64,000 nt of DNA, taken from NCBI GenBank assembly GCA_965249715.1, contig CBDFMP010000047.1, positions 51,922 to 115,921 of the forward strand, read 5' to 3'. Position 1 is the stretch's first letter; each line of letters begins with the position of its first letter. A program made the position numbers and the translations under genes. Source of the DNA: Spirochaetota bacterium (lineage in GTDB: Bacteria > Spirochaetota > UBA12135 > COTS27). The notes beneath the pieces are model-generated. The model saw only the letters and a list, made by a program, of their open reading frames with translations. It was not told the DNA's origin and made no database searches. This document shows, piece after piece, positions 31,899-64,000 of the stretch.

Positions 31899-32329
31899 AA
31901 AGCGGCAGCGAACGTTTACACCCTGCACGCGCTGTTCAACTTAGCTTGGCAATACTTGTTTGAGCGTGTTGAGCAGCTCCTTATTCGCGTTGTTATGCGC
32001 TTATGCGCCCTGTGTGGTTTTATTTGGTGAATGCTTCGCAGCTGCGCTTCATGCAATGCTTGCGGCGGGGGGGAAGGACAGCATGAAAAGTAAAAAGCGG
32101 CTGCGAACGTTTACACCCCGCGCGCGCTGTTCAACTTAGCTTGGCAGCAAGCACTTGTTTGAGCGTGTTGAGCAGCTCCTTATCCGCGTTGTTATGCGCT
32201 TAAGGCGTCCCTGTGTGGTTTTAACTTTGGTAGAACTGCTTCGCGCAGCTGCGCTGCAACAGCAGGAGCCGTCATCAGTGCGCTTCATGCAATGCTTGCG
32301 GCAGCGAACGTTTACATCCCGCGCGCTGT
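31899..32329. repeat. two extra ~195-bp tandem units between the convergent sirtuin and GT9 genes
   Basis: Each unit contains the sirtuin 3' end (gcgcttcatgcaatgcttgcggc), an internal sirtuin fragment (cognate at about 31585-31640, CDALMRPCVVLFGEMLP) and the GT9 3' end. The marker cttagcttggca recurs at about 31941 and 32136. The genuine copy is at 32331. Confidence 0.8.
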
Positions 32330-35802: not shown

Positions 35803-35855
35803 GGTTAGTAAATTTGGGCAGCTGAGTGCTGGCTGTGTTTTGGTGTACGCTGGTT

Positions 35856-37467: not shown

Positions 37468-37487
37468 AGTATGACAGAGGGATGCGC

Positions 37488-37612
37488 TTAGTGAAGTGAG
37501 CTTAGTGAAGTGAGCTTAGTGAAGTGAGCTTAGTGGAGTGAGCTTAGTGAAGTGAGCTTAGTGGAGTGGGCTTAGTGAGTGGGCCTGGTTAGTGAGCTTG
37601 GTGGTGGGGGGG
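37488..37612. repeat. about seven tandem 14-bp units (gcttagtgaagtga) degenerating into a G9 homopolymer
   Basis: The tract lies between the yejF stop (37616) and the hydrolase start (37467), within ~100 bp upstream of the hydrolase gene. Confidence 0.85.
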
Positions 37613-41485: not shown

Positions 41486-41578
41486 CGTGATGCACTGATA
41501 CGCTTGCAGGATTATGCGTGCTGAGCCGCTGGTTTATACTGGGATGCAAGAGGGCTAAACTGACTGATGTAAGCCATT

Positions 41579-41720
41579 GGCAGTTGGCGCAGTTGGCAGT
41601 TGGCAGTTGGCAGTTGGCAGTTGGCAGTTGGCAGTTGGCAGTTGGCAGTTGGCAGTTGGCAGTTGGCAGTTGGCAGTTGGCAGTTGGCAGTTGGCAGTTG
41701 GCAGTTGGCAGTTGGCAGTG
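41579..41720. repeat. heptanucleotide microsatellite (GGCAGTT)n, about 20 units, one variant unit
   Basis: Near-perfect array in the 266-bp spacer between yejA and yejB. Confidence 0.95.
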
Positions 41721-41751: not shown

Positions 41752-43719
41752 TTAGCGTGTGAAGGAGAACTGGGCACTGAGCGCACGAGCTTTTTCTGCA
41801 TCAATCCACCATGCGGTGAACGGCACGCCATAAGGCGGAGCTGTCTTGGGTTTGCCAAAGCGTTCCCAGTACAGGACGCGAAAAGAGGCAATGTACCATT
41901 GCGGGATAATGTAATGTTCCCAGCGCAAGATCCTATCCAAGGCACGCGTATGGGCTAGCAGCTCAGTGCGTGTACGGGTGGCAATCAGTTTTTCAACAAC
42001 TTCATCAATAACAGGATTTTGAATGCCGATGAGATTGCGCGACCCCGGTGTTTGTGCGGCTTGCGAGCTCCAGAAATCGCGTTGTTCGTTGCCCGGTGAA
42101 CTGGACTGACCAAATGTGCCGATGATCATATCAAAGTCAAATTTTTGCACAATATTCTCATATTGCGCAGTATTGATGGTGGCAACCTGAACCTTGATGC
42201 CCAATTTTTTCATATTTTGCACAAAAGGATTGACGATGCGTTCAAAGGCAGCGAGTACAAGGAGGATTTTAAATTCCATGCGCTTGCCGCTTGTGTTATG
42301 GACGCGCATGCCGTTTTGGACAGTCCAGCCTGCTTCATTGAGCAGGGCTGTAGCTTTACGTAGGTTCGCGCGGATATTGCCGGAGCCGTCTGTTTGTGGG
42401 GGCGTGTAAACCTGGGTGAAGACTTCATCGGGAATGCGCCCTTTATACGGCTTAAGGATTTTAAGTTCGGCGGGACTGGGCAGTCCTTTTGCCGATAACT
42501 CACTATTGTTGAAATAGCTGTTTGCGCGGGTGTAGGCATTGTAAAAAAGCACGCGGTTAGACCACTCAAAGTCAAACGCATAAGCTAATGCTGCGCGTAC
42601 ACGTCTGTCTTTGAAGATGTTTTTGCGGATATTGAAGACAAACCCCTGCACGCCTTGTGGATTTTTATCGGGAATAAGACTTTTTTTGAGCAGCCCGTTT
42701 TTGACGGCAGTAATATCGTAGCTGGTTGCCCAGGCCTTGGAATTGTTTTCGTTCAGAAAGTCAATTTTCCCGGAGCGCAGTGCTTCGCGGATGATGTCCA
42801 AACTCTTGTAGTAGTCGTAACGAATTTCATCAAAATTGTCAAAGCCTTTTTTGATCGGGACGTTGCGCCCCCAGTAGTCGGGCATACGTTCATAAGTAAT
42901 AGATTTACCAGGGCGCACATTTTTTATTTTATAAGGACCACTGCCTAGCGGCGCTTTTAAGGTGGTTTTACTGAAGTCGCGGGTGGCCCAATAGTGTTTG
43001 GGCAGGATCACCAATTGACCAAGGATGAGGGGGAGCTCGTGATTGGCTGTGGAGAAGTCAAAGCGCACCACGCGCGGGGCTGTTTGTGTGACACTTTTTA
43101 CATTTTTATAATAAACGCGATAAAACGGCGCGCCTTTTTCTACAAGCGCGTTAAATGTCCAGATCACATCGGCAGGTGTGACAGGTTTGCCATCATGCCA
43201 GCGCGCTTCTTTACGCAAGGTAAATGCCACCCAGCGCCGTGTATCGTCGTAATGAATACGCTCTGCCAGCAGTCCGTACTCGACGCTTTTTTCATCCAGC
43301 GTGCTAGCGGTGAGCGTATCGTAAATATTGCCGATGCCATCCCCGCTTTCGCCTTTAATAATAAACGGGTTCAGGTTATCGAAACTGCCCAATGCACCAA
43401 GTACTACTTTGCCGCCCTTGGGCGCATTGGGATTCACGTAAGCTAAATGTTTAAAATTGTCTGAATACTTCGGTTTGCCGTGTATGCTAACGGCATGCGA
43501 ACCGGTTTTGCTGCTTTGTGCCAGAAGGTTGAGACTTAGTAAGCTGAGTACAAGTAAGAGTGATTGCCAGAATAGTGCTGGCGGGTGTTTATCCGCTAAG
43601 CGACTGAATAGTTGAAAGGGAGTTTTAAATTTTATAATCATCTTGACCTTCTTTTGATAGTTTGACTTTTGAATTGTAAATGATTGTTGTTTGCACGGAG
43701 CAGTTTTAAGGTAAACCAA
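41752..43719 (-). CDS. yejA: ABC transporter substrate-binding protein, family 5 (YejA/OppA-like)
   Basis: 655 aa with a signal peptide. First gene of the yejABEF-like operon. Confidence 0.8.
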
Positions 43720-50101: not shown

Positions 50102-51838
50102 ATGGCAATTGGTAATGTTGATTTTAACGGTAATCATGATTTGGCAATGGTATTTCGTAATGGGGCTATTTATGATGTCCCATTTTTCCAACGCAGCTAT
50201 TCATGGGAAGCGGAGCAGTGGGAGGAACTATGGGAAGAGCTTGTCGCTTTATTAAACAAAGAAACGGATTATCATTACATGGGCTGTTTGGTACTGCAGC
50301 CCAGTCAGCGAGAGAAAAAAAAAGCATTTCGTATTATTGACGGTCAACAGCGTCTCGCAAGCTTTAGTATTATTATTCTTGCAGTACTCAGCCGCTTAAA
50401 TGCAATTATAAACGGACAAACCAATGATGCCGCAGCTGGAAATAAGGATCGTTTTGAAACGTTTGAAAAACAATATATTGGTTCAAAAGATCCCGTTAGC
50501 TTAGCATATTATACTAAGTTAAAACTTAATAAGGAAGATAATAATTTTTATTGCGATAGTCTGGTTCCGTTGAAAAAACCGGCATCAAGGTTTCCTAAGT
50601 CTTATTCACAACGTTTATTAGATAAAGCACTTAAATGGTTTGAACAAAAGCTGGAGGCACTGTACCAAAGTGACGGGGAAGCGTTGGCGAAATTTGTTGA
50701 AACCATTGCAGAAAAGACGTTTTTTACGGTTATTCAAGTTGATGATGAATCAGAGGCATTTGCTGTTTTCGAAACACTCAATGCACGCGGTGTTCAGCTG
50801 GCGCCAACAGATTTGCTAAAAAACTATTTGTTTTCAATAGTTAACAAGGAACCCGATACAACAGCTGCTAAAAAATATCTTAAAATAATGGAGGAAGCTT
50901 GGGAAGGTATGCTCAGTACACTTGGAGCTGATAAAGTCATGGACTTTATCAGAGCGTATTGGAATAGTAAACATGAATTGCCAAAGGGACGTAACTTATT
51001 TAAAACTATACGTCCTAAAGTTAAAATGCCCAAAGAGGCGTTTGATTTAGTCGCTGATTTAAAATTTAACGCTGGTATTTATGCTGTGTTAAGAAATCCT
51101 TATGATCGTAAGTGGGAGGATTTGGGTCAGAAAGATAAATTTGAAAAATATCTTAACGAATTAAAACTTTTTAGCAATATAAAACGGCCATTTCCGTTAT
51201 TATTAGCTGTTTATCGGAAGTATGCAGATACAGATGTCAATAAGCTTTTAACCTTTTTAAGATATGTTAGTATCATTACGTTTCGTTATAATGTCATTTG
51301 TGGTCTTGAGACGCGAGAACAGGAAGCTGTTTACAATAAAGCAGCACTAGCAGTTAATGAAAATAACTTAGACGATGCAAAAAGATATTTGCGAACATTA
51401 TATGGTAAAGTAGAAGATTCCACTTTTAAAGAGGCATTTTCAACGAAAGATATTAAGCGTGAAAAAATGACTAAATATATTCTTGCTGAATTAGAAAAAG
51501 ATGAGAGCGAGGGGCAAGGGAACTTTGAAGTTCCTGCTAGTGTTACGGTTGAGCATATATTTCCTCAGGGAGACACGCATTGGGATGACTGGCCAGCTAG
51601 TCCTGATTTAAAAGAGCATATCTTTCGTTTGGGTAATCAGACCTTGCTAGATGCCGGCGATAATCGAAACTTGGATAATAGTTCTTATGATAATAAAAAA
51701 GCTGTGTACCGCAACTCTCAATACAAGCTCACTTCTTCAATCCCCGATGAATTTCCTGAATGGAACGTTGAAAACATTAATGCACGTCAAAAAAATATGG
51801 CTAAACGTGCCGCTCAGCTCTGGCGCATCGACTTTTAA
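50102..51838 (+). CDS. GmrSD-like DUF262 (ParB-like, DGQQR) plus DUF1524 (His-Me finger) nuclease, a type IV restriction-like defence protein
   Basis: 578 aa. N-terminal FFQRSYSWE and IIDGQQRLAS motifs. C-terminal EHIFPQ and GNQTLLDAGDNRNLDNSSYDNKK (H...N...N) motifs. Own promoter-like tataat at 50065-50070 and an SD gagggga. Confidence 0.8.
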   Translation: MAIGNVDFNGNHDLAMVFRNGAIYDVPFFQRSYSWEAEQWEELWEELVALLNKETDYHYMGCLVLQPSQREKKKAFRIIDGQQRLASFSIIILAVLSRLNAIINGQTNDAAAGNKDRFETFEKQYIGSKDPVSLAYYTKLKLNKEDNNFYCDSLVPLKKPASRFPKSYSQRLLDKALKWFEQKLEALYQSDGEALAKFVETIAEKTFFTVIQVDDESEAFAVFETLNARGVQLAPTDLLKNYLFSIVNKEPDTTAAKKYLKIMEEAWEGMLSTLGADKVMDFIRAYWNSKHELPKGRNLFKTIRPKVKMPKEAFDLVADLKFNAGIYAVLRNPYDRKWEDLGQKDKFEKYLNELKLFSNIKRPFPLLLAVYRKYADTDVNKLLTFLRYVSIITFRYNVICGLETREQEAVYNKAALAVNENNLDDAKRYLRTLYGKVEDSTFKEAFSTKDIKREKMTKYILAELEKDESEGQGNFEVPASVTVEHIFPQGDTHWDDWPASPDLKEHIFRLGNQTLLDAGDNRNLDNSSYDNKKAVYRNSQYKLTSSIPDEFPEWNVENINARQKNMAKRAAQLWRIDF

Positions 51839-51860: not shown

Positions 51861-53813
51861 ATGCGATACAACTTCGACGTCGTTGTTATTGGGGCGGGAC
51901 ATGCAGGGCTGGAAGCCGCGCTGGCTGCTGCTAAATTAGGACAGTCAACCGCGCTGATCACCATCAATACCGATCACATTGTTTATATTTCCTGCAATCC
52001 GTCGATTGGCGGCTTGGGGAAAAGCCATATTGTCAAGGAGCTGCACGCCCTAGGGGGTGCAATGCCCGCACTCGCCGATCGCTCCGCTCTGCAATATAAA
52101 CTACTCAATAAATCGAAAGGCATGGCTGTTTGGTCATTGCGCGCGCAGATTGATAAATATCAATATTCCCGCTGTGCAAGTGATGCTGCTCTTTCCTGTC
52201 CCAAGCTTCAAGTCATCCAGGATCGCATTGACGAGCTGATTATTGATAAAAGCGGGGGAGGCAAGACAACCGCGCGTGTCCTGGGAGCAGTGGGGGAGCG
52301 CGGCACGGAATACCGTGCTCAGGCTGTCATCCTTGCTACCGGCACTTTTCTTGGCGGGAAGCTTTACATTGGCGACCACACCATACAGGGGGGGCGCCTT
52401 GGCGAGCTCAGCTCCACCAAGCTGGCGGCAGCACTCAAACAGTTTAACTTTAAGCTGGAACGATTGAAGACTGGGACTCCCGCGCGGGTACATAAGGATA
52501 GCATTGACACAACAGAGCTGGCCGTGGAGTGGGGCGATAACGATGAACCGTTGGCATTCACCGATGATTTCTCACTCAATCAAAACCCGCGCCTGCCGTG
52601 TTACATCACCTACACCAATGAAGCCACGCACGCTGTCATTCGCAACAATAAGGCGTGTTCGCCGATTTATTCAGGAAGCATTACCGGTACAGCGCCGCGT
52701 TATTGTCCATCCATTGAGGATAAGGTCTTTCGTTTTGCAGGAAAAACCAGCCACCAACTTTATTTGGAACCTGAAAGCGCGCACACAAAAGAAGTTTACA
52801 TTAATGGTCTCTCATCCAGTATGCCTGAGGACGTCCAATACGCTATGCTCCGTACCATTAAAGGTTTGGAGCAAGTGCGTGTGATCAAACCTGCCTATGC
52901 CGTAGAATACGATTACATTGAACCGACGCATATGCGGCATACATTGGAAAGCAAGCTGATTGCGGGGCTTTATTTTGCGGGACAAGTTAACGGTACATCG
53001 GGTTATGAAGAAGCTGCCGGTCAAGGGTTTATGGCCGGGGTCAACGCTGCCCGTAAAATTGCCGGTGCTGAGCCCTTCACGCTCAGTCGCACTGAAAGCT
53101 ACATTGGTGTCATGATAGACGATTTGGTCCTTAAAGGTGTGCGTGAACCTTATCGCATGTTCACCTCGCGTGCCGAACATCGCCTTTCGCTGCGTTTGGA
53201 TAATGCCGATCTTCGCCTCTTGCATTATGGTGTTCACTTAGGACTGGTGAATGCCGAGCGTGAAGCTGCGTTTAAGGAGCGCTTAAAAACATTGAAAACG
53301 CTTAAACAGCAACTTGCCGTGACAACACTGCCTGCTGATGAGCTTGCCGCCTGTTATGGCGATACGGCGTTGCCCGAGCATAAACTTTCCTATTTGCTTA
53401 CACGCGGAGATACTCCTTTTAGTAAATTACTGAGGCTCAGCGCCCCCCTGCTGCAACCCAACTTCAGCACCGCCTCCCCCGCCAGTAAAGCCCAACTCCT
53501 TCGCAATCTCAGTACCGCCGCTTGTGATATTAAATATCAAGGCTACATTTCCAAACAAGCCAAAGAACAAGCACGCCTGCACAAACACCTCAACCATAAA
53601 CTTCCGCATGGCTTTGATTATGCTGCCATCAGTAGTCTTAAATTAGAAGCGCGTGAAAAGTTACAGTGCATTCAGCCGTGTACACTGCTGGAAGCCTCGC
53701 GCATTCCCGGTGTTAAATCCAGTGATCTGGAAATTCTCCTCTGGACCCTCACCAAAGCTCGTCGCAATAAACCCGCTGCCGCCGCAACGTCCATCGCAAA
53801 ATCCAATAGCTAA
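51861..53813 (+). CDS. mnmG: tRNA uridine 5-carboxymethylaminomethyl modification enzyme MnmG (GidA)
   Basis: 650 aa. N-terminal FAD-binding [23 protein letters not shown] and GidA-typical blocks throughout. Confidence 0.95.
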
Positions 53814-54091
53814 GCTTGTACAAGTTCTTCTAAGCTTAAAGGTAAAGGCGTTGTGCGAGTGATTTTTAACGTTTGTTTGTGTTGTCTGCTGAAGCCTGCT
53901 TAACAGACGCTGACTTTATTAACACTGCGAGCCTTAGCGGTACTACTAAGAGGTTTTTTATTGTTTACATTGATTATGTGCTTGTTTTTAATGTTATACT
54001 TCATAAAATATGTTTAGTACCAACATTTTAATGTGAAACTATGGGATGATAACTTAATTTTAACTTTCAAATATTATTAAAGAAATTAACT

Positions 54092-57000
54092 ATGAAAATT
54101 ACTGATTTTATAAGCTTAAAAAGTGCGTTACTTTTACCTCTTGCATTTACTGCGTGCAGTGTTGCCGATGATGCCAGCATACGCACGCTCACATTTGAAG
54201 AAATGTTAGAACCTGCAATCACTCTCACCGATGCTAACGGGGAAGAGTTTTTCGGCGCTTCTGTCAATATTGAGTTTAATGACGATACGACTGGCGAGTC
54301 TACGGACGGCACTATTTTCGTTAACGGTTTTACGAATGTTTGTTCCAATCCGCCCTGCACGGACGCTGAGCTGCAGGAGCCCATCGGCCGCCTTACCATT
54401 ACTGGAATGTCCGATACTTTTACCCTCGCAGAGGACGCAGCAAGTAATGTCATCGACATACCTGATCAGGAAGGCGCTGCCAGCATCTCAGGTAACTTAG
54501 GCAACATTGTCATCACACGCACAAGTGACAAGGCGCTCCGCACCTATGCTGTCATTGTTCAGTACAGTGGGACGCTTGTCACTGAAATTGTCGACAATGC
54601 CGGAGGCTTTGTGAATGTCATTTCCCCAGCTATGGCACCTATGGCTAGCGCTACTTTGGGCTACCAAGCGACAACAACTGCTGTATGGGACGAAGAGGTA
54701 TTAGTCGTCACTGATATGGTGAACCTACCCGGTGATACCGCAATGGGAACGGTTTCTGTTACTGCCAGCGAACTTCCTGCTGGCTACTATGTCATGCCTT
54801 ACACCTATACCGACCCTGCCGGCACAAAGGCTGTCGCACTTATGGGTACACTTACCATTGCTGAAGGCGATGAAAATACACTAAGCGTAGCTTATGAGAA
54901 CCAAGCTTCTTACGACAACCTGCGCATTGAGCTAACTGAAGCGCCTGATCTTGCAATCACTCCCCAAGACCTGATCATCTCAGTAACGAATACGCTCAAC
55001 AACGATATCGTCCTTGACGCTGGGCACTTCGTTATTAATTACAACCATTTTACCGTTACCATCACTGACGCTACTATTTTTCACAATTTAAACGGAGCTG
55101 AGTTAAGTTTAAGCAGTGGTTCGCTTAGCCTTAGCGGAACAGAAAATAGCGCTTTTGATATTGATGCCGCAAATATAACTACCGTGTTTACGGATCCCAT
55201 CGGTACTGAAGCTATCACTACCAACCTCAATACTTTCAGCGTAACAAAAGATGCTATTTCTATTGACTACTCGCTTTATTTGACGTTTGCAAGTACTTAT
55301 AACTTCGAGCTGGATAGTGAGGTCATTGCTGACATGGAAACAGGTGTATCCGCTCCTTTTGTTATTGCAGCTTGCGATAACCCAACCAGCTCTATCTTCA
55401 CTATCGCCACTGACGGCACGACCAACTATTTTGCTAATGTGAGCGGACGTGTTAATTATTATTATAATAGCGCGATAGATGCTAATAACACCAATACCAT
55501 TGTCCTTACGGCTGATGATGGCAGTAGTTTGGATTTTACAGGAGCCATTGCTGTACAGAAGTGCGACAGTTTTGCAGGCGGCGATGGCAGCGCTGGCAAT
55601 CCCTGGCAAATTGATAACGATATGCAATTAGACCTTATGAGCCGCCTCATTAATAATGATGATGCCGCTACAGCTACATATAGTGACTACGGCGATGATG
55701 CCTACATCCTCACTGCGAACATCGATATGAGCATTCCCGAAGCGCCATGGGCAGAAGGTAGTTTGCACCCCAATGCAAATACAAACGGCTTCATACCCAT
55801 TGGCAAGAGTGTTAATCCTATCGGACTCTCAGTCTCACATCAAAGCAACAGCTTCAAGGGACAGCTGAACTGTGAGGCTAACAACACCCGCTATGCTATT
55901 GCGAATTTATACATTAACAATACAAATGACACTGCAGCTGAGAATACTGAGGGAGTTTTTATCGGTCTTTTCAGCGTTCTCACTAATGGCGCTGTGATTA
56001 CAAACTGTACATTGGAAAATGCTTCTATAACTGGATACCAAATTGTAGGAGGCATAGCAGGATATGCGTATAGTTCAAATAATGAGAATATTAGTATTGG
56101 AAGTAATATCGTTGCCAATAGTAGTATCACGGCTAATAGTAGCCGCGTAGGCAGTATTGTGGGAGTTATTTATAGTGTACAAAACAGCAGCATTGTTATC
56201 AGCAGCAATGCCGTTACAAATGGCAATGTTTCAACTGGCAATAGCTACGCAGGCGGCATCATAGGAGCTTCCACTAGTTCAGGCACCAGTACTAATACTA
56301 TCAGTGGCAATACCGTTACTGATGGAAGTATCACGGCTGACAATGACAACGCAGGCGGCATCACAGGGTATGTGGCTAGTTCCGGTGGTAATACTATTGT
56401 CAGCATGAATACTGTTACTGGCGGTAGCGTCACGGTAAACGATGATAACGCAGGCGGCATTGTGGGATATATTCATAGTTCACAGGACGCAAACAGTACC
56501 ATAAGCGGTAATACTGTTGCAAACGGCAATATCACCGCTAGCAACAATTTCGTAGGCGGTATTGCAGGATATATGTATAGTGGAGAGAGGGGCGGCGGCA
56601 CCCTCAGTAATAATGTTGTTACAAATGGCACCATCAGCGTAAGCTTCTATGATGCAGGCGGCATTGCAGGAGTGATGTATAGCACATCCTTTGGCAGCAA
56701 TGCCCTCAATGACAACGTCGTTACAAATAGCAGCATCACAGCTGATAATACAGCAGGCGGCATTGTGGGAGATGTGTATAGTTTAGAAGATGGCAGCAAT
56801 ATCATCAGCACGAATAACATTAGTGGCGGTAGCATCACGGCTAACATAAGCAACGCAGGCGGCATCGTGGGATTTATGTATAGTGAAAATGCCAGCAAGA
56901 GCAATGTCATCAATGCCGCGTTTGCCGCCACAACCATTACTGCCAGCAATGGAAACGCCGGCGGAGTAGTCGGGTACATTCTTCAGGGAGGCATCACTAA

Positions 57001-57445
57001 CAGCTTTTTTATGGGAACCATTAGTGCTGATAGCGGTACAGTTGGCGGTGTCGTGGGTTTTGTGACCGATACCACGTCCACTATCACCAACTCTTATGCG
57101 GCGGCAATTGTAACGGGTATTCCTGATACTAGCTATGGATTGGTGCCCACCAGCGTTACGGTCAACCATAGCTACTACAATAGCACATTGCACACAGGCG
57201 CAGCCGACAGTGCTGAGGGAACAGTCGCGCAAAGCCATGACGTGCTGCGATACCCCAGGGGCAGTAGAGGCATTTATGCGAACTGGGATGAAGCCAGTTG
57301 GGATTTCGGCACTGACGATCAGTACCCCATGCTGAGAGGATTGCCACTTACGGCTTCCGAGCAGTGCGGAGTTGCCGATGCTGCGCTTACCAGTGTGACG
57401 TTTAACTGTGGAACGGGTACGGGCGATACTGGTTACGATGATTAA
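54092..57445 (+). CDS. giant surface lipoprotein with an N-terminal Cys-x-x-Pro-Pro-Cys module and ~13 tandem GLUG-like 29-aa repeats
   Basis: 1117 aa. Lipobox LAFTAC-S. N-terminal module CSNPPCTDAE...IPDQEGA is paralogous to modules in 58617..63817. Repeats have consensus N-x-V-T-N-G-x-I-T-A-x-N-x-N-A-G-G-I-V-G-Y-x-Y-S. Ends ...NCGTGTGDTGYDD. Confidence 0.7.
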   Translation: MKITDFISLKSALLLPLAFTACSVADDASIRTLTFEEMLEPAITLTDANGEEFFGASVNIEFNDDTTGESTDGTIFVNGFTNVCSNPPCTDAELQEPIGRLTITGMSDTFTLAEDAASNVIDIPDQEGAASISGNLGNIVITRTSDKALRTYAVIVQYSGTLVTEIVDNAGGFVNVISPAMAPMASATLGYQATTTAVWDEEVLVVTDMVNLPGDTAMGTVSVTASELPAGYYVMPYTYTDPAGTKAVALMGTLTIAEGDENTLSVAYENQASYDNLRIELTEAPDLAITPQDLIISVTNTLNNDIVLDAGHFVINYNHFTVTITDATIFHNLNGAELSLSSGSLSLSGTENSAFDIDAANITTVFTDPIGTEAITTNLNTFSVTKDAISIDYSLYLTFASTYNFELDSEVIADMETGVSAPFVIAACDNPTSSIFTIATDGTTNYFANVSGRVNYYYNSAIDANNTNTIVLTADDGSSLDFTGAIAVQKCDSFAGGDGSAGNPWQIDNDMQLDLMSRLINNDDAATATYSDYGDDAYILTANIDMSIPEAPWAEGSLHPNANTNGFIPIGKSVNPIGLSVSHQSNSFKGQLNCEANNTRYAIANLYINNTNDTAAENTEGVFIGLFSVLTNGAVITNCTLENASITGYQIVGGIAGYAYSSNNENISIGSNIVANSSITANSSRVGSIVGVIYSVQNSSIVISSNAVTNGNVSTGNSYAGGIIGASTSSGTSTNTISGNTVTDGSITADNDNAGGITGYVASSGGNTIVSMNTVTGGSVTVNDDNAGGIVGYIHSSQDANSTISGNTVANGNITASNNFVGGIAGYMYSGERGGGTLSNNVVTNGTISVSFYDAGGIAGVMYSTSFGSNALNDNVVTNSSITADNTAGGIVGDVYSLEDGSNIISTNNISGGSITANISNAGGIVGFMYSENASKSNVINAAFAATTITASNGNAGGVVGYILQGGITNSFFMGTISADSGTVGGVVGFVTDTTSTITNSYAAAIVTGIPDTSYGLVPTSVTVNHSYYNSTLHTGAADSAEGTVAQSHDVLRYPRGSRGIYANWDEASWDFGTDDQYPMLRGLPLTASEQCGVADAALTSVTFNCGTGTGDTGYDD

Positions 57446-58432
57446 TACCCAACGTACATAACCCTTGCTTTTGCGGGGACGCGGGGCATAGTGGGGAAGG
57501 CTTGCCATGCTCCGCCTGTTAATGTTTTTAATTGCCGTTGCCCATAAAATCAGCGGCGGCGGCTTTTTCTTCCAGCAGCTCACGGCGGGTGGCGTTCAAC
57601 TTCTTCTGAGCAAGGGTGTCATGGGCACTGGCAGCGGATGAAGAGCCGCGCGCCTTGAATGAGCGTTGCGCCGCCGTTGCTGAACATTGTCGATAAACTC
57701 GCCGCGCAGCCAGCTTTCGTTGTCAATGACAGTCGTGACGGGTTTCGTGTCAATGGTGCCGGTGCTATTGGCAAACTATTGGCAAAATCGAAAAATTGGG
57801 TGCTGGAATGCCAGTAGCTGGGATTTCGGCGCTAATGACCAGTACCCCATGCTGAGAGGACTGCTGCTTACAGCTTCAGAGCAATGCCAAGCCGCGGATG
57901 CTGCGCTTACCAGTGTGACACTTAACTGTGGAACAGGTACGGGCAATACTGGCTACGATGAGTAAGGCACACTAAAACTCACCGCGCCGCTTGCGGGAAC
58001 GCGGGGCATAGTGGGGAAGGCTTGCCATGCTCCGCCTGTTAATGTTTTTAATTGCCGTTGCCCATAAAATCAGCGGCGGCGGCTTTTTCTTCCAGCAGCT
58101 CACGGCGGGTGGCGTTCAACTTCTTCTGAGCAAGGGTGTCATGGGCACTGGCAGCGGATGAAGAGCCGCGCGCCTTGAATGAGCGTTGCGCCGCCGTTGC
58201 TGAACATTGTCGATAAACTCGCCGCGCAGCCAGCTTTCGTTGTCAATGACAGTCGTGACGGGTTTCGTGTCAATGGTGCCAGTGCTATTGGCAAACTATT
58301 GGCAAAATCGAAAAATTGGGTGCTGGAATGCCAGTAGCTGGGATTTCGGCACTGACGATCAGTACCCCATGCTGAGAGGATTGCCACTTACGGCTTCCGA
58401 GCAGTGCGGAATTTCCAATAGCTAAGCTTGTA
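57446..58432. repeat. two ~520-bp tandem units, each a ~290-bp segment of unknown origin plus a copy of the last ~55 codons of the lipoprotein gene. The array ends in a 26-bp copy of the mnmG 3' end
   Basis: C-terminal copies at 57800-57965 and 58320-58405; genuine at 57280-57445. tccaatagctaagcttgtacaagttc occurs at 53801-53826 and at 58407-58432. ORF-track 57687..57965 and 58207..58425 are the copied fragments. Confidence 0.75.
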
Positions 58433-58616
58433 CAAGTTCGCATAAATTTAGCGGTATTGTACGGTTGATTTTTTTAGTTTTATTTGTTAAATAAAACAAC
58501 CCAAATTGCTAATCTGTGTTATTATTTAACCTAAGATACTTTAACTGTATATAAGACACTAACACTTCCGCATGAAAAATAAAAGTGGAATAGTTTAGCT
58601 TTTCAAATTAGGAGCC

Positions 58617-61600
58617 TTGATTATGAAATTCACTCAAACAACTTCAACAAAACACTTCACCCCGCCCAAAAAAATACCTAAATTTGTTTTTGCTTTCCTC
58701 ATAAGCATCTTATTCTCCGTTTTCACGGCATGTACCACCGCCGATGACAGCACTTCCACTCGCTTAACGTTTGAACGGGCATTGGATGACGCTATCGCAC
58801 TTAACAATGTTGACGGCAGTAGCTCACTTCAGGGTGCTATTGTTCGCTTTGAGCATACAACCAATGATAACGGTGAAACCACCGGCGATGGTACTATTAT
58901 TATTGAAAATATCACCAATATCTGCTCCAGCCCGCCTTGTGGGGTTGCTGAAACTGCCGATATCGGTACGCTTGTGCTGTCTTATAATGACAATTCTTTT
59001 ACCATCGCCAATAATCCAGCTTTCACCATTACTGACACAGCAGCTTCCCTGTCTATCCCAGACCAAGACGGCGCTGTTGCTGCAAGTGTTACATTAGCTA
59101 CCATTACCATCACCAGGAACAGCGATGCAATGGACTTCAACTACGACATTATCGCCGATTACAATGGAACTCCTGTCGCTAATATTATTAATGCCATTGT
59201 CTCCACTCCTGCTGATATTACAAAAATTATCAATGCCACCTTTGATGCTGTTGAACTGGAAGCAACCTTAGATGCTGCTTCCGCTACTATCGCCCTCAGC
59301 GGCATCAACCGCGTCAATGGCAGCGGTGTTATCAGCATTAATGACAACGACGACGGCACGCTCCCAGCTGGCTTCGCGGTCACTAAACCTGACGGCACAG
59401 CTTACACTTTCGCCGATCCCGATGATGCCGACATTACCAATTATGACGCCACCCCGCTAGCTGAAGGCATGCTGAGCATTGCTGAACGTGTGGATAATGG
59501 CGACGGCACCTTCGGCGATGTTGTGGGCGGCAATGAAGCCAGGTTCACGGTTACATTCGCCTTAGCCGAACTCAGCGGCTTCGGTAAAACTTTCCTCAGC
59601 ATCGCTGACCCAGACGGTAATGACCTCAACGGTTATGACATCACCGTGACAACAAACGACGCCACTACTGGTACCATTGCCATTAGCGGTCTTATAAATG
59701 CCTGTGCCACGCCGCCCTGTATGAACGCAGGAGGCGCCATCGGTACACTCATCTTTACTAAAGAGAATGCCGCTTTCATCATTACTGCCGATGGAGACTT
59801 CATCGACGCCGGTACAACCGTCACCCGTAGTGTCCCCGACCAGGACGGTGCCGGCGCTATAGCAGCTGTTGCCTTGGGCAACATTACTATCTCTAACATT
59901 GATGACGCTGATGAAATCAGCTATGCCGTTACTGCCACTTACACAGGCACACCCGTTAATGACATCATTGCCAACGCAGCAGGCGGCATCGCTGACCTCA
60001 TCACCGCTACGTTTACTTACGGTACTTTCACCAGTCAAACACTCACCCCAAGTTTGAACGCCGAGTTTGATACCATCACCCTTGCAGGTACCAATACCTA
60101 CTCGGGCACAGGCGCTATCAATGGCATTGACACTGTCCTCCCAGCTGGTTTCACCGTCTCCACCCCAGACGACACGGACTTTACTTTCAGCGACCCCGAT
60201 GATGGTGCCATCACTGAAACCAATGCCACCTTAACTACATCGCTCACCATTGCTGAAACGGGTACGGATAACAGCAATGATTACAGCATTATGCTGGACT
60301 TAGCCGCACTCACCTTGTTTGATGAAACGTTCCTCAGTCTCAATGACGCTGACGGCAACACCGTCACCGCTGATAATGCCATCATCGTAGCCACAACTGA
60401 AGACCCTGACCCAGCTGTCAGCTCAGGCGCCATCACGCTTAGTCAAATCACAAACTTGTGTACCGCCCCGCCCTGCAGTGATGCTGAATCGGATGCTGTT
60501 GTCGGTACGCTCATTCTTACTAAGGATAACGCTTTTAGCTGTTGCGTTCAGCGCCACTTTCAGCCGATGACGACACCACCGCCACACTCAGTCTCCCCGA
60601 TCAAATTGGTGCGACAAATACAAACGTTGATTTTGCTGCTGCAACCAATATCACCATCACGCGCGGCGATAATGCTGTCATCACTTATACCCTCAGTGCC
60701 GCTTACAGCAGCACTGCTGTCGCTGACATCATTGCCAATGCCGTAGGCGGCGTGCCTGCCCTTATTAAGGCTACATTCAGTGGACGTGACCTCATTGCCG
60801 AGCTCAGCGCTGACGGCAGCACCATCGCACTCAGCGGCACCAATGCCGCAACACCCGTCGACGCCGACCCCCCAGCAGGTGCCATTAACGCCAGCAGCAT
60901 GCTCCCAGCTGGCTTCTTCGTCACTAAAATTGACGGCACAGCTTATACAGCTTATACCTTTGCTGACCCTGACAATGAAAATACCAACGATTATCTCGCC
61001 ACTACGCTGACTGAAGGCATGCTGAGCATTGCTGAACGCGCGGATAACGGCGACGGCACCTTCAGCGATGCTGTGGGCGGCAATGAAGCCACTTTCACGG
61101 TTACACTTGCCTTAGCTGAACTCTTAGAACTTAACCAGGTAAATTTTAGCATCAATGCCCCAAGCGGCACTCCGCTTGGCACGGATGTTTATTCCATTGA
61201 CGTGACAATAAACGATGACGCCACCGCCACCGGCACCATCGCTATTAGCGGTCTGACTAATGCCTGTGCCACGCCGCCCTGCATGAACGCAGGTGATGCC
61301 ATTGGCACGCTCGTTCTCACTAAAGATGCCGCCGCTTTCACCATTACTGCCGATGGAGACTTCACCAATGACACCGACACCGCCACCGCCACCCTCAGTA
61401 TCCTAGACCAGGACGGCGCCGGCGCTGCAGCAGCTGTTACCTTGGGGAACATTACCATCTCTAACCAAGGCGCTGATGAAATCACCTATACCGTTACTGC
61501 CACTTACACAGGCACACCCGTTAATGACATCATTGCCAACGCAGCAGGCGGCATCGCTGACTTCATCACCGCTACGTTTACTTACGGTACTTTCCCCAGT

Positions 61601-63817
61601 CAAACACTCACCCCAAGTTTGAACGCCGAGCTTGACACCATCACCCTTGCAGGTACCAATACCTACTCGGGCACAGGTGCTATCAATGGCATTGACACTG
61701 TCCTCCCAGCTGGTTTCACCATCACCCCAGTAGGCAGTACGGATTTCACCGACCCCGATGGTGATGACATCACTGAAACCAATGCCACCTTAACTACATC
61801 GCTCACCATTGCTGAAACGGGTACGGATAACAGCAATGATTACAGCATTATGCTGGACTTAGCCGCACTCACCTTGTTTGATGAAACGTTCCTCAGTCTC
61901 AATGACGCTGACGGCAACACCGTCACCGCTGATAATGCCATCATCGTAGCCACAACTGAAGACCCTGACCCAGCTGTCAGCTCAGGCGCCATCACGCTTA
62001 GTCAAATCACAAACTTGTGTACCGCCCCGCCCTGCAGTGATGCTGAATCGGATGCTGTTGTCGGTACGCTCATTCTTACTAAGGATAACGCTTTTAGCGT
62101 TGCGTTCAGCGCCACTTTCAGCGATGACGACACCACCGCCACACTCAGTCTCCCCGATCAAATTGGTGCGACAAATACAAACGTTGATTTTGATGCTGCA
62201 ACCAATATCACCATCACCCGCGGCGATAATGCTGTCATCACTTATACCCTCAGTGCTACTTACAGCAGCACTGCCGTTAATGACATCATCGCCAATGCAG
62301 GCGGCGTGCCTGCCCTTATTGAGGCTACATTCAGTGGACGTGACCTCAGCGCCGAGCTCAGCGCTGACGACAGCACCATCGCACTCAGCGGCACCAATGC
62401 CGCAACAGCCATCGACGCTGACCCCCCAGCAGGTGCCATTAACGCCAGTAGTCTTCTGCCAGCTGGCTTCGCGGTCACTAAAACTGACGGCACAGCTTAT
62501 ACCTTTGCTGACCCTGACGGTGAAAACACCAATGATTATGACGCCACCCCGCTAGCTGAAGGCATGCTGAGCATTGCTGAACGCGTGGATAATGGCGACG
62601 GCACCTTCGGCGATGTTGTAGGCAATAATGAAACCAATTTCTCCGTTATGCTGACATTAGAAGAATACAGCGACTTCGGTATGCTTTTTTTCACCATCAA
62701 TGATCCAGCCGGTAATGAACTCACAGGCGCTTCACTCAGCGTAACAACAGCCGCCACCACCGGCACCATCGCCATTAGCGGTCTTACTAATGTCTGTGCC
62801 GCCCCGCCCTGCGCGAACGCAGAAGCGAATATCGGCACGCTCGCTCTTAGTAATGATGCTGTAGTGTTCACCGTTACTGACTTCGGAGATTTTGCCAATA
62901 ACGACGGGACCGCTACCCTTATCATCCCAGACCAGGTCAGCGCTACCCAGCTGCTGAGTGTTGCCTTGGGGAACATTACCGTCGCCAATATTGGGGCTGA
63001 CGCCATTACCTATACCATCACCGCCGCTTACAGCAGTACTCCCGTTACTGAGCTTATCGCTAATGTTGGCGGCATATCAGCACTGCTGCCGCCGGCAGCA
63101 GCAACCGTCACTTTGGGCAGCAGTGGAGCAGGTGATAATGCCATACTCAGCTGGGAGAATGATGTTTTAACCATCGTAAACATCCCCAACCTCAGCGGCA
63201 ACACTGAAGCGGGAATGGTGACACTGCCTACTCCCAGCTTATTGCCCGCAGGATTTTACATTAGCTCGACAAGTTACCCCTTTACGGACCCAGTCGGTAC
63301 GGATGACGCCAACATAAATGATGATGCTGCCTTTACCATTGCTGAAGGTGATCCAGGCGATGGTACTGAACAAAACCCGCCCACCATAACCGATAACAAT
63401 AGCAATGTTTATGGTCTGAACATTAATTTTGGCGCAACTCCTCCTGTTATTCTTAGTGCTACAGACCTGAGTATCATCGTTACGGATACGCGCGGCATTG
63501 ATCACAGCATCGCTTCAGCTCAACTGCGCGTTGTCCAGTATGATGCGAATCCCAGCGTGACCATCACTGCCGTTGCTGATATTCGTAACTTTAACGAAGC
63601 AATAACTGCACTTGGGTTACGTGATGGAACAGTTATGCTTGCTGCTGCAACGGGCAGCAGTATTTCCATTGATATAACAGACATCGAAACTACCTTTGTT
63701 GATGCCGCTGGCACGGAATCCATCACGCTTGACCTTGGCAGTTTCAGCGCAACAGAAAATTCTAGTTCCACTACTTATACGTTTATGCTTTACGCTACTG
63801 ACAGCTTATGGCATTGA
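58617..63817 (+). CDS. giant modular surface lipoprotein (paralog of 54092..57445), reading frame interrupted near 60535-60575
   Basis: ORF-track pieces 58617..60746 and 60542..63817 are one gene. The segment 60000-60540 is nearly identical to 61530-62100. The break has two 1-nt insertions relative to the internal paralogous copy at about 62095. Lipobox FTAC-T. About 8 modules start at ISGLTNxCAxPPC...LPDQDGA. Confidence 0.6.
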
Positions 63818-64000
63818 AGTGAACATTGAGCTAGGTGGTAGTGCTGACTATTCGCTGACATGGAAACAAGCAGTCCCATCAGCATCCGTTCATACTATTA
63901 CTCGCTTGCACATAAACCAGCCCGCCGTTGCTTTCACTATTACTGCTGACGGCACGACCAACAATCTCAATGACGTGACCGTAAATATTAACTATTATTA
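63797..64000 (+). pseudogene. continuation or fragment of a paralogous lipoprotein module in a shifted frame
   Basis: After the tga at 63815-63817, GSADYSLTWKQAVPSASVHTITRLHINQPAVAFTITADGTTNNLNDVTVNINYY continues in another frame. It is homologous to the 55300-55460 region (ELDSEVIADMETGVSAPFVIAACDNPTSSIFTIATDGTTNYFANVSGRVNYYYN). Confidence 0.4.

What the first reader, a model, noticed from the sequence alone, without database searches (positions are those of the whole stretch)
53801..58432. First giant lipoprotein gene bracketed by 26-bp direct copies of the mnmG 3' end, with its own C-terminus duplicated
tccaatagctaagcttgtacaagttc is the end of mnmG (...AKSNS*). It recurs 4.6 kb downstream, fused in-frame to a truncated third copy of the lipoprotein C-terminus (...SEQCG-ISNS*). 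In between lie the 54092..57445 gene and two ~520-bp units, each carrying its last ~55 codons (NWDEASWDFGTDDQYPMLRGL...) plus a ~290-bp segment not derived from neighbouring genes. That segment reads on the minus strand like the C-terminus of an unrelated protein (...ELLEEKAAAADFMGNGN*). The direct repeats make the whole 4.6-kb block look like an insertion or duplication that could be lost by recombination. This would generate presence/absence variation for a surface protein.
Basis: partly seen in the sequence, partly recalled or inferred. Interest (0 to 1): 0.6.

Follow-up and report, generated by a model that had tools for sequence, protein, structure and literature searches.

The report
Recombination scars around a lipoprotein gene
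The repeats around this giant lipoprotein gene are real, but they look like leftovers of sloppy DNA duplication that also killed a neighbouring malate dehydrogenase gene, in a genome that makes such duplications at many gene borders, not like a purpose-built switch for a surface protein.

Summary
An exact 26-bp repeat sits at 53802-53827 (last 12 nt of mnmG plus 14 nt) and at 58414-58439. It brackets the intact 1117-aa lipoprotein gene and 2.2 tandem 520-bp units.

The "foreign" ~290-bp segment is not foreign. It is a decayed 3' fragment of a convergent malate dehydrogenase gene. It has two frameshifts, an 11-nt duplication and a ~57-codon deletion, all shared by both copies.

Each unit therefore holds the lipoprotein 3' end, a terminator and the mdh 3' end, joined at a 7-nt microhomology. 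At least four more arrays of the same build (periods 199-430 bp) lie on other gene borders in this window. Together they cover about 8% of it.

The 26-bp repeat is the best-kept part of a duplicated mnmG terminator hairpin. It abuts a truncated third lipoprotein C-terminus at an illegitimate junction.

No recombinase, inverted repeats or foreign composition were found. The two lipoprotein genes are not sister copies.

My best reading is non-functional scars of duplication-prone illegitimate recombination.

No close relative exists in any collection, so presence/absence variation cannot be tested. Interest is modest; the genome-wide habit of border duplications is the more notable point.

The parts
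51861..53813 (+). mnmG (650 aa). Its last 12 nt, including the stop codon, form the start of the left repeat.
   Evidence: ORF. Relatives at 40-51% identity align to residues up to ~632-638. It lies in the cluster rnpA-yidC-jag-mnmE-(GmrSD)-mnmG.
53802..53827 (+). Left copy of the exact 26-bp direct repeat. It contains the perfect palindrome CTTGTACAAG.
53814..53880 (+). Terminator-like hairpin after mnmG. The 5' arm GCTTGTACAA (53814-53823, inside the repeat) pairs with TTGTGCGAGT (53851-53860), followed by GATTTTTAACGTTTGTTTGT.
   Evidence: Folds (about -13 kcal/mol; z-score not significant). Function is inferred.
54092..57445 (+). lipo1, an intact giant lipoprotein gene (1117 aa). It has a signal peptide with ...AFTAC, N-terminal modules, about 10 GG(I/V)xG repeats of ~33 aa, and the C-terminal motif WDFG..QYPML.
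   Evidence: (repeat families D2, D3, D5). No curated domain matched.
57284..57445 (+). CtA, the last 53 codons plus stop of lipo1. This is the part that recurs in units B and C.
57446..57470 (.). Spacer A, unrelated to spacer B (9/25 identical).
57471..57527 (.). G+C-rich hairpin (GCGGGGCATAG...CCATGCTCCGC) with a T-run, lying between the convergent lipo1 and mdh ends. First part of the 99.4% identical core.
57528..57810 (-). mdh relic, copy 1. It matches codons equivalent to ~186-248 and ~307-331 of cytosolic-type malate dehydrogenase. Stop codon at 57528-57530. Lesions: two +1 frameshifts (~57651-57684), a ~57-codon deletion (~57620-57632) and an 11-nt tandem duplication (57765-57786).
   Evidence: (MDH chains, E 1e-12).
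57799..57824 (.). Junction J1, copy 1: GGTGCTGGAATGCCAGTAGCTGGGAT. The antisense mdh reading (..HSSTQ) and the lipoprotein reading (W-N-A-S-S-W-D) overlap in TGGAATG.
   Evidence: and direct reading of the sequence. Identical in both copies.
57804..57965 (+). CtB, a promoterless copy of a lipoprotein C-terminus (53 codons plus stop). It is 81-90% identical to CtA, with no indels, and carries family-consensus residues.
57966..57990 (.). Spacer B.
57991..58330 (-). Hairpin plus mdh relic, copy 2 (stop codon 58048-58050). It carries the same lesions as copy 1.
58319..58344 (.). Junction J1, copy 2, identical to copy 1.
58324..58413 (+). CtC, a third lipoprotein C-terminus copy truncated after 30 codons. 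From TGGGAT onward it matches CtA at 74 of 75 positions.
58408..58419 (.). Junction J2 (GGA ATT | TCC AAT). The lipoprotein C-terminus is fused in frame to the copy of the mnmG end. Similarity on both sides is only patchy.
58414..58439 (+). Right copy of the 26-bp direct repeat.
58426..58492 (+). Second terminator-like hairpin (arm in the repeat, TTGTACGG arm, then TGATTTTTTTAGTTTT). It shows in-register similarity to the first.
58623..64000 (+). lipo2, a paralogous lipoprotein gene that runs off the window. It is interrupted by at least three frameshifts and built of three ~1.55-kb internal modules.

Best explanation
The locus is a set of recombination scars, not a device.

Proposed history:
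1. lipo1 once lay tail-to-tail with a malate dehydrogenase gene. The two shared a hairpin terminator.
2. mdh decayed. It acquired two frameshifts, an 11-nt duplication and a ~57-codon deletion.
3. A stretch running from codon ~1065 of the lipoprotein gene, across the terminator and into mdh codon ~186 was then duplicated head to tail. The join (J1) formed at a 7-nt microhomology, and the unit was amplified to about three copies. This left promoterless lipoprotein C-termini and mdh relics.
4. This is the same kind of event that produced at least four other arrays on gene borders in this window.
5. Later exchange among units and paralogues made the array a mosaic. The core stayed 99.4% identical. 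Unit B carries a C-terminus of another paralogue type. Unit C carries the current lipo1 type.
6. A further illegitimate join (J2) fused the third C-terminus copy to a second copy of the mnmG end-plus-terminator module upstream of lipo2. That join removed the rest of the array and of mdh. The 26-bp repeat is the part of that module that is still identical.

Consequences are only potential. Recombination could occur between the 348-nt cores, between CtA and CtC (giving a truncated ...SEQCGISNS* end), or rarely between the 26-bp copies (loss of lipo1).

Shown: the anatomy, the mdh identity, the shared lesions, the junction sequences and the other arrays. Inferred: the order of events and the mechanism.
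For: - The repeat and the units are real.
- The frameshift-corrected minus-strand reading matches malate dehydrogenases in the PDB (23 chains, best E 1.2e-12). It also matched 108 fragments carrying the MDH/LDH C-terminal domain PF02866. The alignment shows the ~57-residue gap.
- All lesions are present in both copies, which differ at 2 of 348 nt.
- J1 is identical in units B and C, so it formed once.
- CtB differs from CtA by 21 substitutions and no indels, with 9 synonymous against 8 non-synonymous codon changes. At 4 of the 8 amino-acid differences it carries the state seen in paralogues P0114, P0117 and P0132. It is therefore not a decayed copy of CtA.
- Arrays of the same build lie at 15075-16241, 16632-18124 (299 bp x5), 23775-24822 (270 bp x3.9) and 31850-32383 (199 bp x2.6). 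Each contains truncated copies of the ends of both flanking genes, intact genes at the outer ends, and relics with internal deletions or stop codons. With the 520-bp array they cover about 5.4 kb, or 8.4% of the window.
- lipo2 itself holds three 1.55-kb modules with 99% identical patches.
- No integrase or transposase appeared among the ORFs of 150 aa or more scanned against Pfam, i.e. all but rpoB/rpoC (assigned by size and position only) and two minus-strand ORFs at 35002-36521. Small ORFs in the gaps were listed but not scanned.
- The block has no long inverted repeats at its ends, no match in plasmid or phage collections and no compositional break.
Against: - No single simple event gives the observed arrangement. 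Both flanks of J2 are perfect copies of upstream sequence (74/75 and 26/26). Yet beyond the 26 bp only hairpin-arm and T-run similarity remains (banded test 36/5000 shuffles), the intergenic regions are unalignable, and lipo1 and lipo2 are not sister paralogues.
- The sharp 26-bp identity overlapping a gene's 3' end is also what a site-specific integration leaves.
- The order of events cannot be checked without a second genome.
- The right-hand intact mdh that the model predicts for such arrays is absent here. That absence has to be explained by the additional J2 event.
Confidence: 0.6

Rival explanations
1. Site-specific cassette insertion. The 26-bp repeat is an att-like core at the 3' end of mnmG. 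The 4.6-kb lipo1 block would be a recombinase-less element, moved by an integrase encoded elsewhere and inserted between mnmG and lipo2. This would resemble islands that target the 3' ends of neighbouring housekeeping genes.
For: - Exact direct repeats flank the block, and the left one restores the gene's last codons and stop.
- The repeat holds a perfect 10-bp palindrome found nowhere else in the window.
- lipo1 and lipo2 are not sister copies, so the block looks inserted rather than duplicated in place.
- SGI1 uses the last 18 bp of thdF (=mnmE), the gene just upstream in this cluster, as its attB (PMC2297512).
- The mnmE-mnmG interval here already carries a low-G+C GmrSD insertion.
Against: - No integrase or any recombinase was found in the block or among the window ORFs scanned against Pfam. 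Coverage was not complete (see best explanation).
- The right end of the block is a truncated lipoprotein C-terminus relic abutting the core. That is an unlikely att arm.
- The palindrome is the 5' arm of a hairpin whose 3' arm and T-run are also duplicated. A terminator module accounts for it.
- The block's G+C content is like its surroundings.
- The repeat is absent from viral contigs, and the block is absent from plasmid and phage collections.
Confidence: 0.08
2. Assembly artefact. The number of 520-bp units, or the join at the 26-bp repeat, was produced by the assembler threading repeats or mixing strains, and is not present in the DNA.
For: - The source appears to be a single assembly of an otherwise unsampled organism (singleton proteins).
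- The 348-nt cores are 99.4% identical and CtC equals CtA, so copy number is hard to assemble from short reads.
Against: - The units are not identical. Unit B has 21 substitutions and an unrelated spacer, which collapse or stutter would not create.
- J1 and J2 are specific chimeric sequences with in-frame joins.
- Four other arrays with 83-97% identical, individually mutated copies show that such structures are a property of the genome.
- A 26-bp repeat is shorter than normal reads or k-mers, so it would be spanned (inference).
Confidence: 0.1
3. Programmed C-terminal variation. CtB and CtC are silent cassettes that replace the 3' end of the expressed lipo1 by gene conversion, as in pilE/pilS-type systems. 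The identity of CtC with the current lipo1 end would be the trace of a recent transfer.
For: - Promoterless 3' copies lie directly downstream of an intact expression gene, separated by a conserved 348-nt spacer.
- CtB keeps its frame and its stop codon, and differs at 8 of 49 residues.
- CtC matches CtA at 74 of 75 positions.
Against: - There are only two cassettes, and one is identical to the expressed copy.
- The variable stretch is the last 49 residues, with modest change.
- The spacer is a dead mdh fragment.
- There is no homology upstream of the cassettes to resolve a conversion.
- Identical architecture occurs at housekeeping gene borders (ABC transporter, SIR2, DNA-alkylation repair gene), where variation makes no sense.
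Confidence: 0.04

Closest known systems
Large-period intergenic tandem repeats of Ehrlichia ruminantium (Collins et al. 2005 PNAS, cited in PMC3287509; its content recalled from my own knowledge, paper not held)
   Same: Both have many head-to-tail arrays with periods of 100-500 bp at gene borders, producing truncated gene-end copies. In E. ruminantium TRF arrays cover 6.3% of the genome, against 0.38% in E. coli (table in PMC3287509). Here five arrays cover about 8.4% of the 64-kb window.
   Different: The organism is unrelated; its nearest mnmG relatives are Spirochaetia MAGs at 51% identity. Only one window was seen, not a genome census. Copy-number variation between strains, which defines the Ehrlichia case, cannot be tested. 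The 520-bp array is truncated by an extra junction to a copy of the mnmG end.
Integrative islands targeting the 3' end of origin-proximal tRNA/rRNA-modification genes: SGI1 at thdF/mnmE (PMC2297512). SCCmec at rlmH/orfX is cited from my own knowledge.
   Same: Direct repeats flank the block, and the left one overlaps the last codons and stop of the housekeeping gene. The location is in the rnpA-yidC-jag-mnmE-mnmG cluster.
   Different: No integrase or ccr-type recombinase was found. One end of the block is a pseudogene relic. There is no compositional signature. The repeat is part of a duplicated terminator hairpin.
Duplication junctions formed at microhomology by template switching, and duplication-then-remodelling as described for Salmonella and E. 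coli amplifications (my own knowledge)
   Same: J1 lies in a 7-nt shared string and J2 in patchy similarity. The ABC-array junction has essentially no homology. Relic copies show later internal deletions.
   Different: Those cases are transient laboratory amplifications of kilobases to hundreds of kilobases. Here the units are short, fixed and old enough to have diverged by 3-17%.
Silent-cassette antigenic variation (Neisseria pilE/pilS, Borrelia vlsE, Treponema tprK; my own knowledge)
   Same: An expressed surface-protein gene is followed by promoterless partial copies.
   Different: There are only two copies covering only the extreme C-terminus, with little diversity. The same architecture occurs at non-surface genes.

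Membership tests
Border-spanning tandem duplication array (Ehrlichia ruminantium type) | Head-to-tail units of about 100-750 bp that span an intergenic region and contain truncated copies of the ends of both flanking genes | tested here: met
   Each 520-bp unit holds the lipo1 3' end, a spacer, a hairpin and the mdh 3' fragment.
Border-spanning tandem duplication array (Ehrlichia ruminantium type) | Intact copies of the flanking genes are kept at the outer ends of the array | tested here: inconclusive
   lipo1 is intact at the left end. No full-length mdh lies at the right end, because the third unit is cut by J2. The other four arrays in the window do keep both genes.
Border-spanning tandem duplication array (Ehrlichia ruminantium type) | Many such arrays in the same genome | tested here: met
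   Four further arrays lie within 64 kb.
Border-spanning tandem duplication array (Ehrlichia ruminantium type) | Copy number varies between strains | not testable with these tools
   No genome or contig closer than 51% mnmG identity exists in any collection.
Site-specific integrative element (att-flanked island, SGI1/SCC-like) | Direct repeats at both ends, one overlapping the 3' end of the target gene | tested here: met
Site-specific integrative element (att-flanked island, SGI1/SCC-like) | Integrase or recombinase gene in or next to the element | tested here: not met
   The block encodes only lipo1 and the relics. No recombinase domain appeared among the window ORFs of 150 aa or more scanned against Pfam. 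Four such ORFs and the small ORFs in the gaps were not scanned. A trans-acting enzyme elsewhere in the genome cannot be excluded.
Site-specific integrative element (att-flanked island, SGI1/SCC-like) | Empty site in relatives, or an excised circular form | not testable with these tools
   No relatives and no reads are available.
Site-specific integrative element (att-flanked island, SGI1/SCC-like) | Foreign composition or similarity to known mobile DNA | tested here: not met
   G+C is 0.42-0.54, like the flanks. No plasmid, phage or viral-contig match was found.
Transposon or IS insertion | Terminal inverted repeats, a transposase and a short (2-15 bp) target duplication | tested here: not met
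   No inverted repeats at the block ends, no transposase, and the repeat is 26 bp.
Malate dehydrogenase (LDH/MDH superfamily, C-terminal domain PF02866), for the minus-strand segment | Sequence match to the MDH C-terminal domain, including the H-S-(S/A)-T-Q and VQQRGAxxIKARGxSSAxSA motifs | tested here: met
Malate dehydrogenase (LDH/MDH superfamily, C-terminal domain PF02866), for the minus-strand segment | Complete, uninterrupted reading frame (a functional gene) | tested here: not met
   The N-terminal ~185 codons are missing. There are two frameshifts, an 11-nt duplication and a ~57-codon deletion. It is a pseudogene relic.
Silent-cassette antigenic variation system | Several to many diverse promoterless cassettes with conserved flanks on both sides of a variable region | tested here: not met
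   There are two cassettes, one identical to the expressed end. No lipoprotein homology lies 5' of codon 1065 in the cassettes.

The most novel reading that the evidence does not exclude
The 26-bp palindrome-bearing sequence at the mnmG stop codon is a recombination site at which whole lipoprotein cassettes are inserted or exchanged by a recombinase encoded elsewhere. That would make this origin-proximal position a cassette dock for giant surface proteins in an unsampled spirochaete-like lineage. The border-spanning arrays would then be by-products of the same unusually active recombination machinery.
Probability: 0.07. Interest if true: 0.7.

Novelty: new member of a known kind. Interest (0 to 1): 0.33.

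Why it matters
For the finding itself the stakes are modest. It shows how a surface-protein gene cluster is remodelled by illegitimate joins, and how a metabolic gene (mdh) was lost as collateral. It also cautions against reading direct repeats at a gene's 3' end as a mobility signature.

The wider point is more useful. This little-sampled genome carries large-period tandem duplications on about one gene border in seven within this window. That density is comparable to Ehrlichia ruminantium, the textbook oddity for this trait. If it holds genome-wide, it marks a second, unrelated lineage in which to ask what makes border duplications so frequent and so tolerated.

Tried and rejected
- **Strain comparison.** Exact-protein look-ups for mnmG, lipo1, P0002 and P0117 returned nothing on record. 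The genome contigs and metagenome scans with mnmG gave nothing above 51% identity. The metagenome scan with the lipo1 N-terminal half found nothing. None of the 21 loci fetched carries a lipoprotein or mdh relative near mnmG.
- **Source of the mdh segment.** No intact mdh lies in the window. The homologue search returned only short MDH fragments at 63% identity or less, so no donor copy from the same genome was seen.
- **Paralogue C-termini.** The third homologue search, with the last 151 aa of lipo1, returned nothing, not even lipo1 itself. It appears to favour candidates of similar length, so it was uninformative. The representatives search recovered the family instead.
- **Simple 4.6-kb tandem duplication.** Rejected, because the intergenic regions and gene starts are unalignable and lipo2 is closer to P0114 and P0117 than to lipo1.
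- **Homology beyond the 26 bp.** An unrestricted local alignment was not significant (186/2000 shuffles). An in-register banded test was significant (36/5000).
- **Terminator scan.** The consensus scan did not flag the hairpins, because their loops exceed 8 nt. Fold z-scores were not significant.
- **RNA genes.** Rfam and tRNA scans found nothing in the locus.
- **Domain searches.** Pfam and NCBIfam gave no curated domain for the lipoprotein family, only a sub-threshold Peptidase_M26_N hit.
- **Structure.** The AlphaFold single-sequence model of lipo1 residues 493-1117 had pLDDT 44. It was not used, and no fold search was run.
- **GCTAAGCTT as a junction hotspot.** The motif is enriched (13 hits against 1.13 expected, about 6 independent). 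It lies near only two of the junctions, so this stays an observation.

Full report
**1. The observation**

The 26-mer TCCAATAGCTAAGCTTGTACAAGTTC occurs exactly twice in the window, at 53802-53827 and 58414-58439. No shuffle reached that count.

The first copy spans the last three sense codons and the stop of mnmG (51861-53813...AKSNS*) plus 14 nt downstream. The second copy follows in frame on a truncated lipoprotein C-terminus, so ORF 58207-58425 ends ...LTASEQCGISNS*.

Between the two copies lie the intact 1117-aa gene 54092-57445 (lipo1) and head-to-tail units of 520 bp. These are A 57283-57802, B 57803-58322 and a partial C 58323-58413.

Segment-by-segment identities show a mosaic:

| Segment | Comparison | Identity |
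|---|---|---|
| Core 57471-57818 vs 57991-58338 | A vs B | 2 mismatches in 348 nt |
| Lipoprotein-derived piece | A vs B | 81-90% |
| 25-nt spacer after the stop codon | A vs B | 9/25 (unrelated) |
| Lipoprotein piece from TGGGAT onward | A vs C | 74/75 |
| 61 nt to the left of that piece | B vs C | identical |

**2. What the "foreign" segment is**

On the minus strand the core reads in three frames as pieces of one protein:
- ..HSSTQFFDFANS..
- ..TGTIDTKPVTTVIDNESWLRGEFIDNVQQR..
- ..GATLI.. and ..KARGSSSAASAHDTLAQKKLNATRRELLEEKAAAADFMGNGN*

Joined together, this peptide matches malate dehydrogenases in the PDB. There were 23 chains, best E 1.2e-12. Residues 3-63 align with residues 186-248 of pig cytosolic MDH, and residues 64-88 with 307-331. 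The peptide also matched 108 protein fragments that all carry the MDH/LDH C-terminal domain PF02866. An alignment with six of them shows an internal gap of about 57 residues.

The segment is therefore a pseudogene relic of an mdh gene that converged on lipo1. Its features are:
- Stop codon at 57528-57530 and 58048-58050.
- Two single-base insertions.
- An 11-nt tandem duplication (CTATTGGCAAA, at 57765 and 57776).
- A ~57-codon deletion.
- Loss of everything upstream of the catalytic His codon.

Both copies carry all of these lesions, so the decay preceded the last duplication or homogenisation. G+C content is like the neighbourhood, and no intact mdh lies in the window. Between the lipo1 stop and the mdh stop lies a G+C-rich hairpin followed by a T-run, which is a plausible shared terminator.

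**3. The junctions**

*J1.* The string GGTGCTGGAATGCCAGTAGCTGGGAT occurs at 57799 and at 58319.
- Read antisense, it ends the mdh fragment (CAA ACC AGC TCC CAT = Q T S S H).
- Read sense, it begins a lipoprotein C-terminus (TGG AAT GCC AGT AGC TGG GAT = W N A S S W D).
- The two readings share TGGAATG, a 7-nt microhomology.
- The W-N-A-S-S-W version resembles paralogues (P0114 has W-D-A-S-N-W) more than lipo1's own W-D-E-A-S-W.
- J1 is identical in units B and C, so it arose once.

*J2.* At 58413|58414 the sequence ...GAG CAG TGC GGA ATT joins TCC AAT AGC TAA. The flanks show only patchy similarity to either parent.

*Unit B's C-terminus.* It differs from lipo1's by 21 substitutions, with no indel and the same stop position. 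There are 9 synonymous and 8 non-synonymous codon changes. At four of the eight amino-acid differences it carries the residue found in P0114, P0117 and P0132. It is therefore a piece of a once-functional paralogue type, not a decaying copy of the present gene end.

**4. The 26-bp repeat in context**

The repeat contains the perfect palindrome CTTGTACAAG, found only at these two places in the window.

In both copies this sequence forms the 5' arm of a hairpin, and the 3' arm is followed by a T-rich run:
- Copy 1: arm TTGTGCGAGT at 53851-53860, then GATTTTT...
- Copy 2: arm TTGTACGG, then TGATTTTTTT....

Tests of similarity beyond the 26 bp gave mixed results:
- An unrestricted alignment was not significant (186 of 2000 shuffles).
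- An in-register banded alignment was significant (36 of 5000 shuffles, and 7 of 380 real intergenic controls).

I read the repeat as the best-preserved part of a duplicated module of about 75 nt, namely the last 12 nt of mnmG plus its terminator-like hairpin. Only the left boundary of the second copy (J2) is a clear breakpoint. Terminator function is inferred; the fold energies alone are not better than shuffles.

**5. Why a simple 4.6-kb gene duplication fails**

- The two intergenic regions and the gene 5' ends are not alignable as DNA.
- lipo1 and lipo2 share 32-35% protein identity.
- lipo1 is 40-41% identical to P0117 and P0118, whereas lipo2 is 57% identical to P0114 and 52% to P0117.

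The two neighbours are therefore not sister copies. Yet both flanks of J2 are perfect copies of upstream sequence. I could not find a one-step history. A short conversion tract at the edge of an old duplicated module would fit, and so would a multi-step template switch. One genome cannot decide between them.

**6. The decisive context: the same architecture elsewhere in the window**

A whole-window scan found further large-period arrays, all on gene borders.

| Array | Period and copies | Flanking genes |
|---|---|---|
| 16632-18124 | 299 bp x5.0, 95% | ABC ATPase and its permease |
| 23775-24822 | 270 bp x3.9, 96% | ORF 23239-23862 and a DNA-alkylation-repair gene |
| 31850-32383 | 199 bp x2.6, 83% | Convergent SIR2 and glycosyltransferase genes |
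| 15075-16241 | Three copies of ~320-430 bp | Convergent ends of ORF 14318-15133 and the ABC-3 permease |

Reading them shows the same build in each case:
- Each unit holds a truncated end of one flanking gene, the intergenic region and a truncated end of the other.
- Intact genes sit at the outer ends of the array.
- Junctions have little or no homology. The ABC array reads ...CATACCTG|ACAAACAATG...
- Relic copies carry stops or internal deletions. The 270-bp unit lacks 132 nt of the downstream gene, and the middle copy at 15.5 kb lacks ~90 nt.

With the 520-bp array they cover about 5.4 kb, or 8.4% of the window. For scale, TRF arrays cover 6.3% of the Ehrlichia ruminantium genome and 0.38% of E. 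coli K-12 (table in PMC3287509).

lipo2 itself contains three ~1.55-kb modules with 99% identical patches. It also has at least three frameshifts, two of them single-base insertions relative to its own repeat copy.

The 520-bp units are thus one product of a general, duplication-prone process rather than a feature of the lipoprotein.

**7. The genes and the organism**

lipo1 has a signal peptide ending ...AFTAC, N-terminal modules, about ten ~33-aa GG(I/V)xG repeats, and the C-terminal motif WDFG..QYPML.

No curated domain matches; there was only a sub-threshold Peptidase_M26_N hit.

An exhaustive profile-free search found 1463 relatives at E of 0.001 or less, and 65 at 1e-30 or less. The top hits are full-length lipoproteins at 39-46% identity. 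All those checked are singleton proteins on other NCBI/ENA contigs, whose DNA I could not retrieve.

The locus lies in the origin-type cluster rnpA-yidC-jag-mnmE-mnmG, with a low-G+C GmrSD restriction gene inserted between mnmE and mnmG.

The closest mnmG sequences are Spirochaetia MAGs at 51% identity. mnmG and lipo1 are singleton clusters among ~15 billion proteins.

**8. Rivals**

*Site-specific insertion (about 0.08).* Repeats that restore a gene's 3' end are what integrases leave. SGI1 uses the last 18 bp of thdF/mnmE as its attachment site (PMC2297512). Against this:
- No recombinase appears in the block or among the window ORFs scanned against Pfam. Four ORFs of 150 aa or more and the small ORFs in the gaps were not scanned.
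- One end of the block is a pseudogene relic.
- There is no compositional break.
- Viral, plasmid and phage collections gave no match.
- The palindrome is accounted for by the hairpin.

*Assembly artefact (about 0.1).* This is unlikely because the units differ by specific substitutions and the junctions are specific in-frame chimeras. Four other arrays show individually mutated copies.

*Silent-cassette variation (about 0.04).* This does not fit two cassettes covering 49 residues. It also does not fit an architecture shared with housekeeping gene borders.

**9. Consequences (inferred, not shown)**

- Recombination between the 348-nt cores would change the unit number without touching lipo1.
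- Recombination between CtA and CtC (74/75 identical) would delete 1040 bp and give lipo1 the truncated end ...SEQCGISNS*.
- Homeologous exchange with CtB would swap eight residues.
- Recombination between the 26-bp copies would delete 4612 bp, remove the only intact lipoprotein gene of the pair, and leave mnmG unchanged. From general knowledge of bacterial recombination, a 26-bp identity 4.6 kb apart is near the lower limit for RecA-dependent exchange and far apart for slippage, so this should be rare.

**10. Verdict**

The locus is best explained as non-functional scars of illegitimate and homologous recombination in a lipoprotein paralogue cluster, which destroyed a convergent mdh (confidence about 0.6).

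It is a new member of a known kind. The more interesting lead is the density of border-spanning tandem duplications in this unsampled lineage.

Noticed in passing
window 16632-18124: Tandem array of 299 bp x5.0 (95% identical) between the ABC ATPase gene (18053-19045, minus) and the ABC-3 permease gene (15932-16783, minus). Each unit holds the ATPase's last ~70 nt, the intergenic region and the permease's first ~150 nt. The relic permease starts carry a stop codon. The junction reads CATACCTG|ACAAACAATG.
   Followed up: partly
window 15075-16241: Three tandem copies (~320-430 bp, 93-97% identical) spanning the convergent 3' ends of ORF 14318-15133 and the ABC-3 permease. The middle copy lacks ~90 nt.
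   Followed up: partly
window 23775-24822 (and 24955-24994): Tandem array of 270 bp x3.9 (96% identical). Each unit holds the last 88 nt of ORF 23239-23862, a promoter-like spacer, the start of the DNA-alkylation-repair gene, and a 40-nt piece of that gene's interior. It creates three nearly identical 53-aa ORFs (23964, 24234, 24504).
   Followed up: partly
window 31581-32383: Older array of 199 bp x2.6 (83% identical) between the convergent SIR2 (31053-31898) and glycosyltransferase-9 (32330-33532, minus) genes. It includes a copied piece of the SIR2 interior (31581-31662).
   Followed up: partly
window 58623-64000: lipo2 is broken by at least three frameshifts. Two are single-base insertions near 60540 and 60565 relative to its own repeat copy, and another lies near 63800. 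It consists of three ~1.55-kb modules with patches 92-99% identical. It is probably a pseudogene, and it runs off the window.
   Followed up: partly
window 50102-51838: A GmrSD-type restriction endonuclease gene (both Pfam domains) with G+C of 0.31-0.39 is wedged between mnmE and mnmG, whose G+C is about 0.5. It looks like a horizontally acquired insertion. No flanking repeats were found.
   Followed up: partly
window 41577-41719: The heptamer TTGGCAG is repeated about 20 times (97% identical) between the oligopeptide-binding-protein gene (41752-43719, minus) and the permease gene (40400-41485, minus). Possible slippage-prone tract; a GCTAAGCTT site lies right next to it at 41748.
   Followed up: no
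window 37486-37603: A 14-nt unit GCTTAGTGAAGTGA is repeated 8.6 times between a hydrolase gene (36601-37467, minus) and an ABC ATPase gene (37616-39283, minus).
   Followed up: no
window, 13 sites (e.g. 53809, 58421, 16641, 18101, 33824, 41748): The 9-mer GCTAAGCTT occurs 13 times against 1.13 expected from shuffles, about 6 independent occurrences once repeat copies are collapsed. It lies inside both 26-bp repeats, and as an inverted pair around the junction of the 299-bp array. AAGCTT itself occurs 59 times. This was noticed after the fact.
   Followed up: partly
window 25551-28319: A phosphoenolpyruvate carboxylase gene is present. The organism can therefore make oxaloacetate although this mdh copy is dead, so another malate dehydrogenase may exist elsewhere in the genome.
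   Followed up: no
window 57768-57796 and 58288-58316: A sigma-70-like match (TTGGCA, 17-nt spacer, AAAAAT) was created inside the 11-nt duplication of the mdh relic. It points towards the promoterless C-terminus copies and the chimeric ORFs 57687-57965 and 58207-58425.
   Followed up: no
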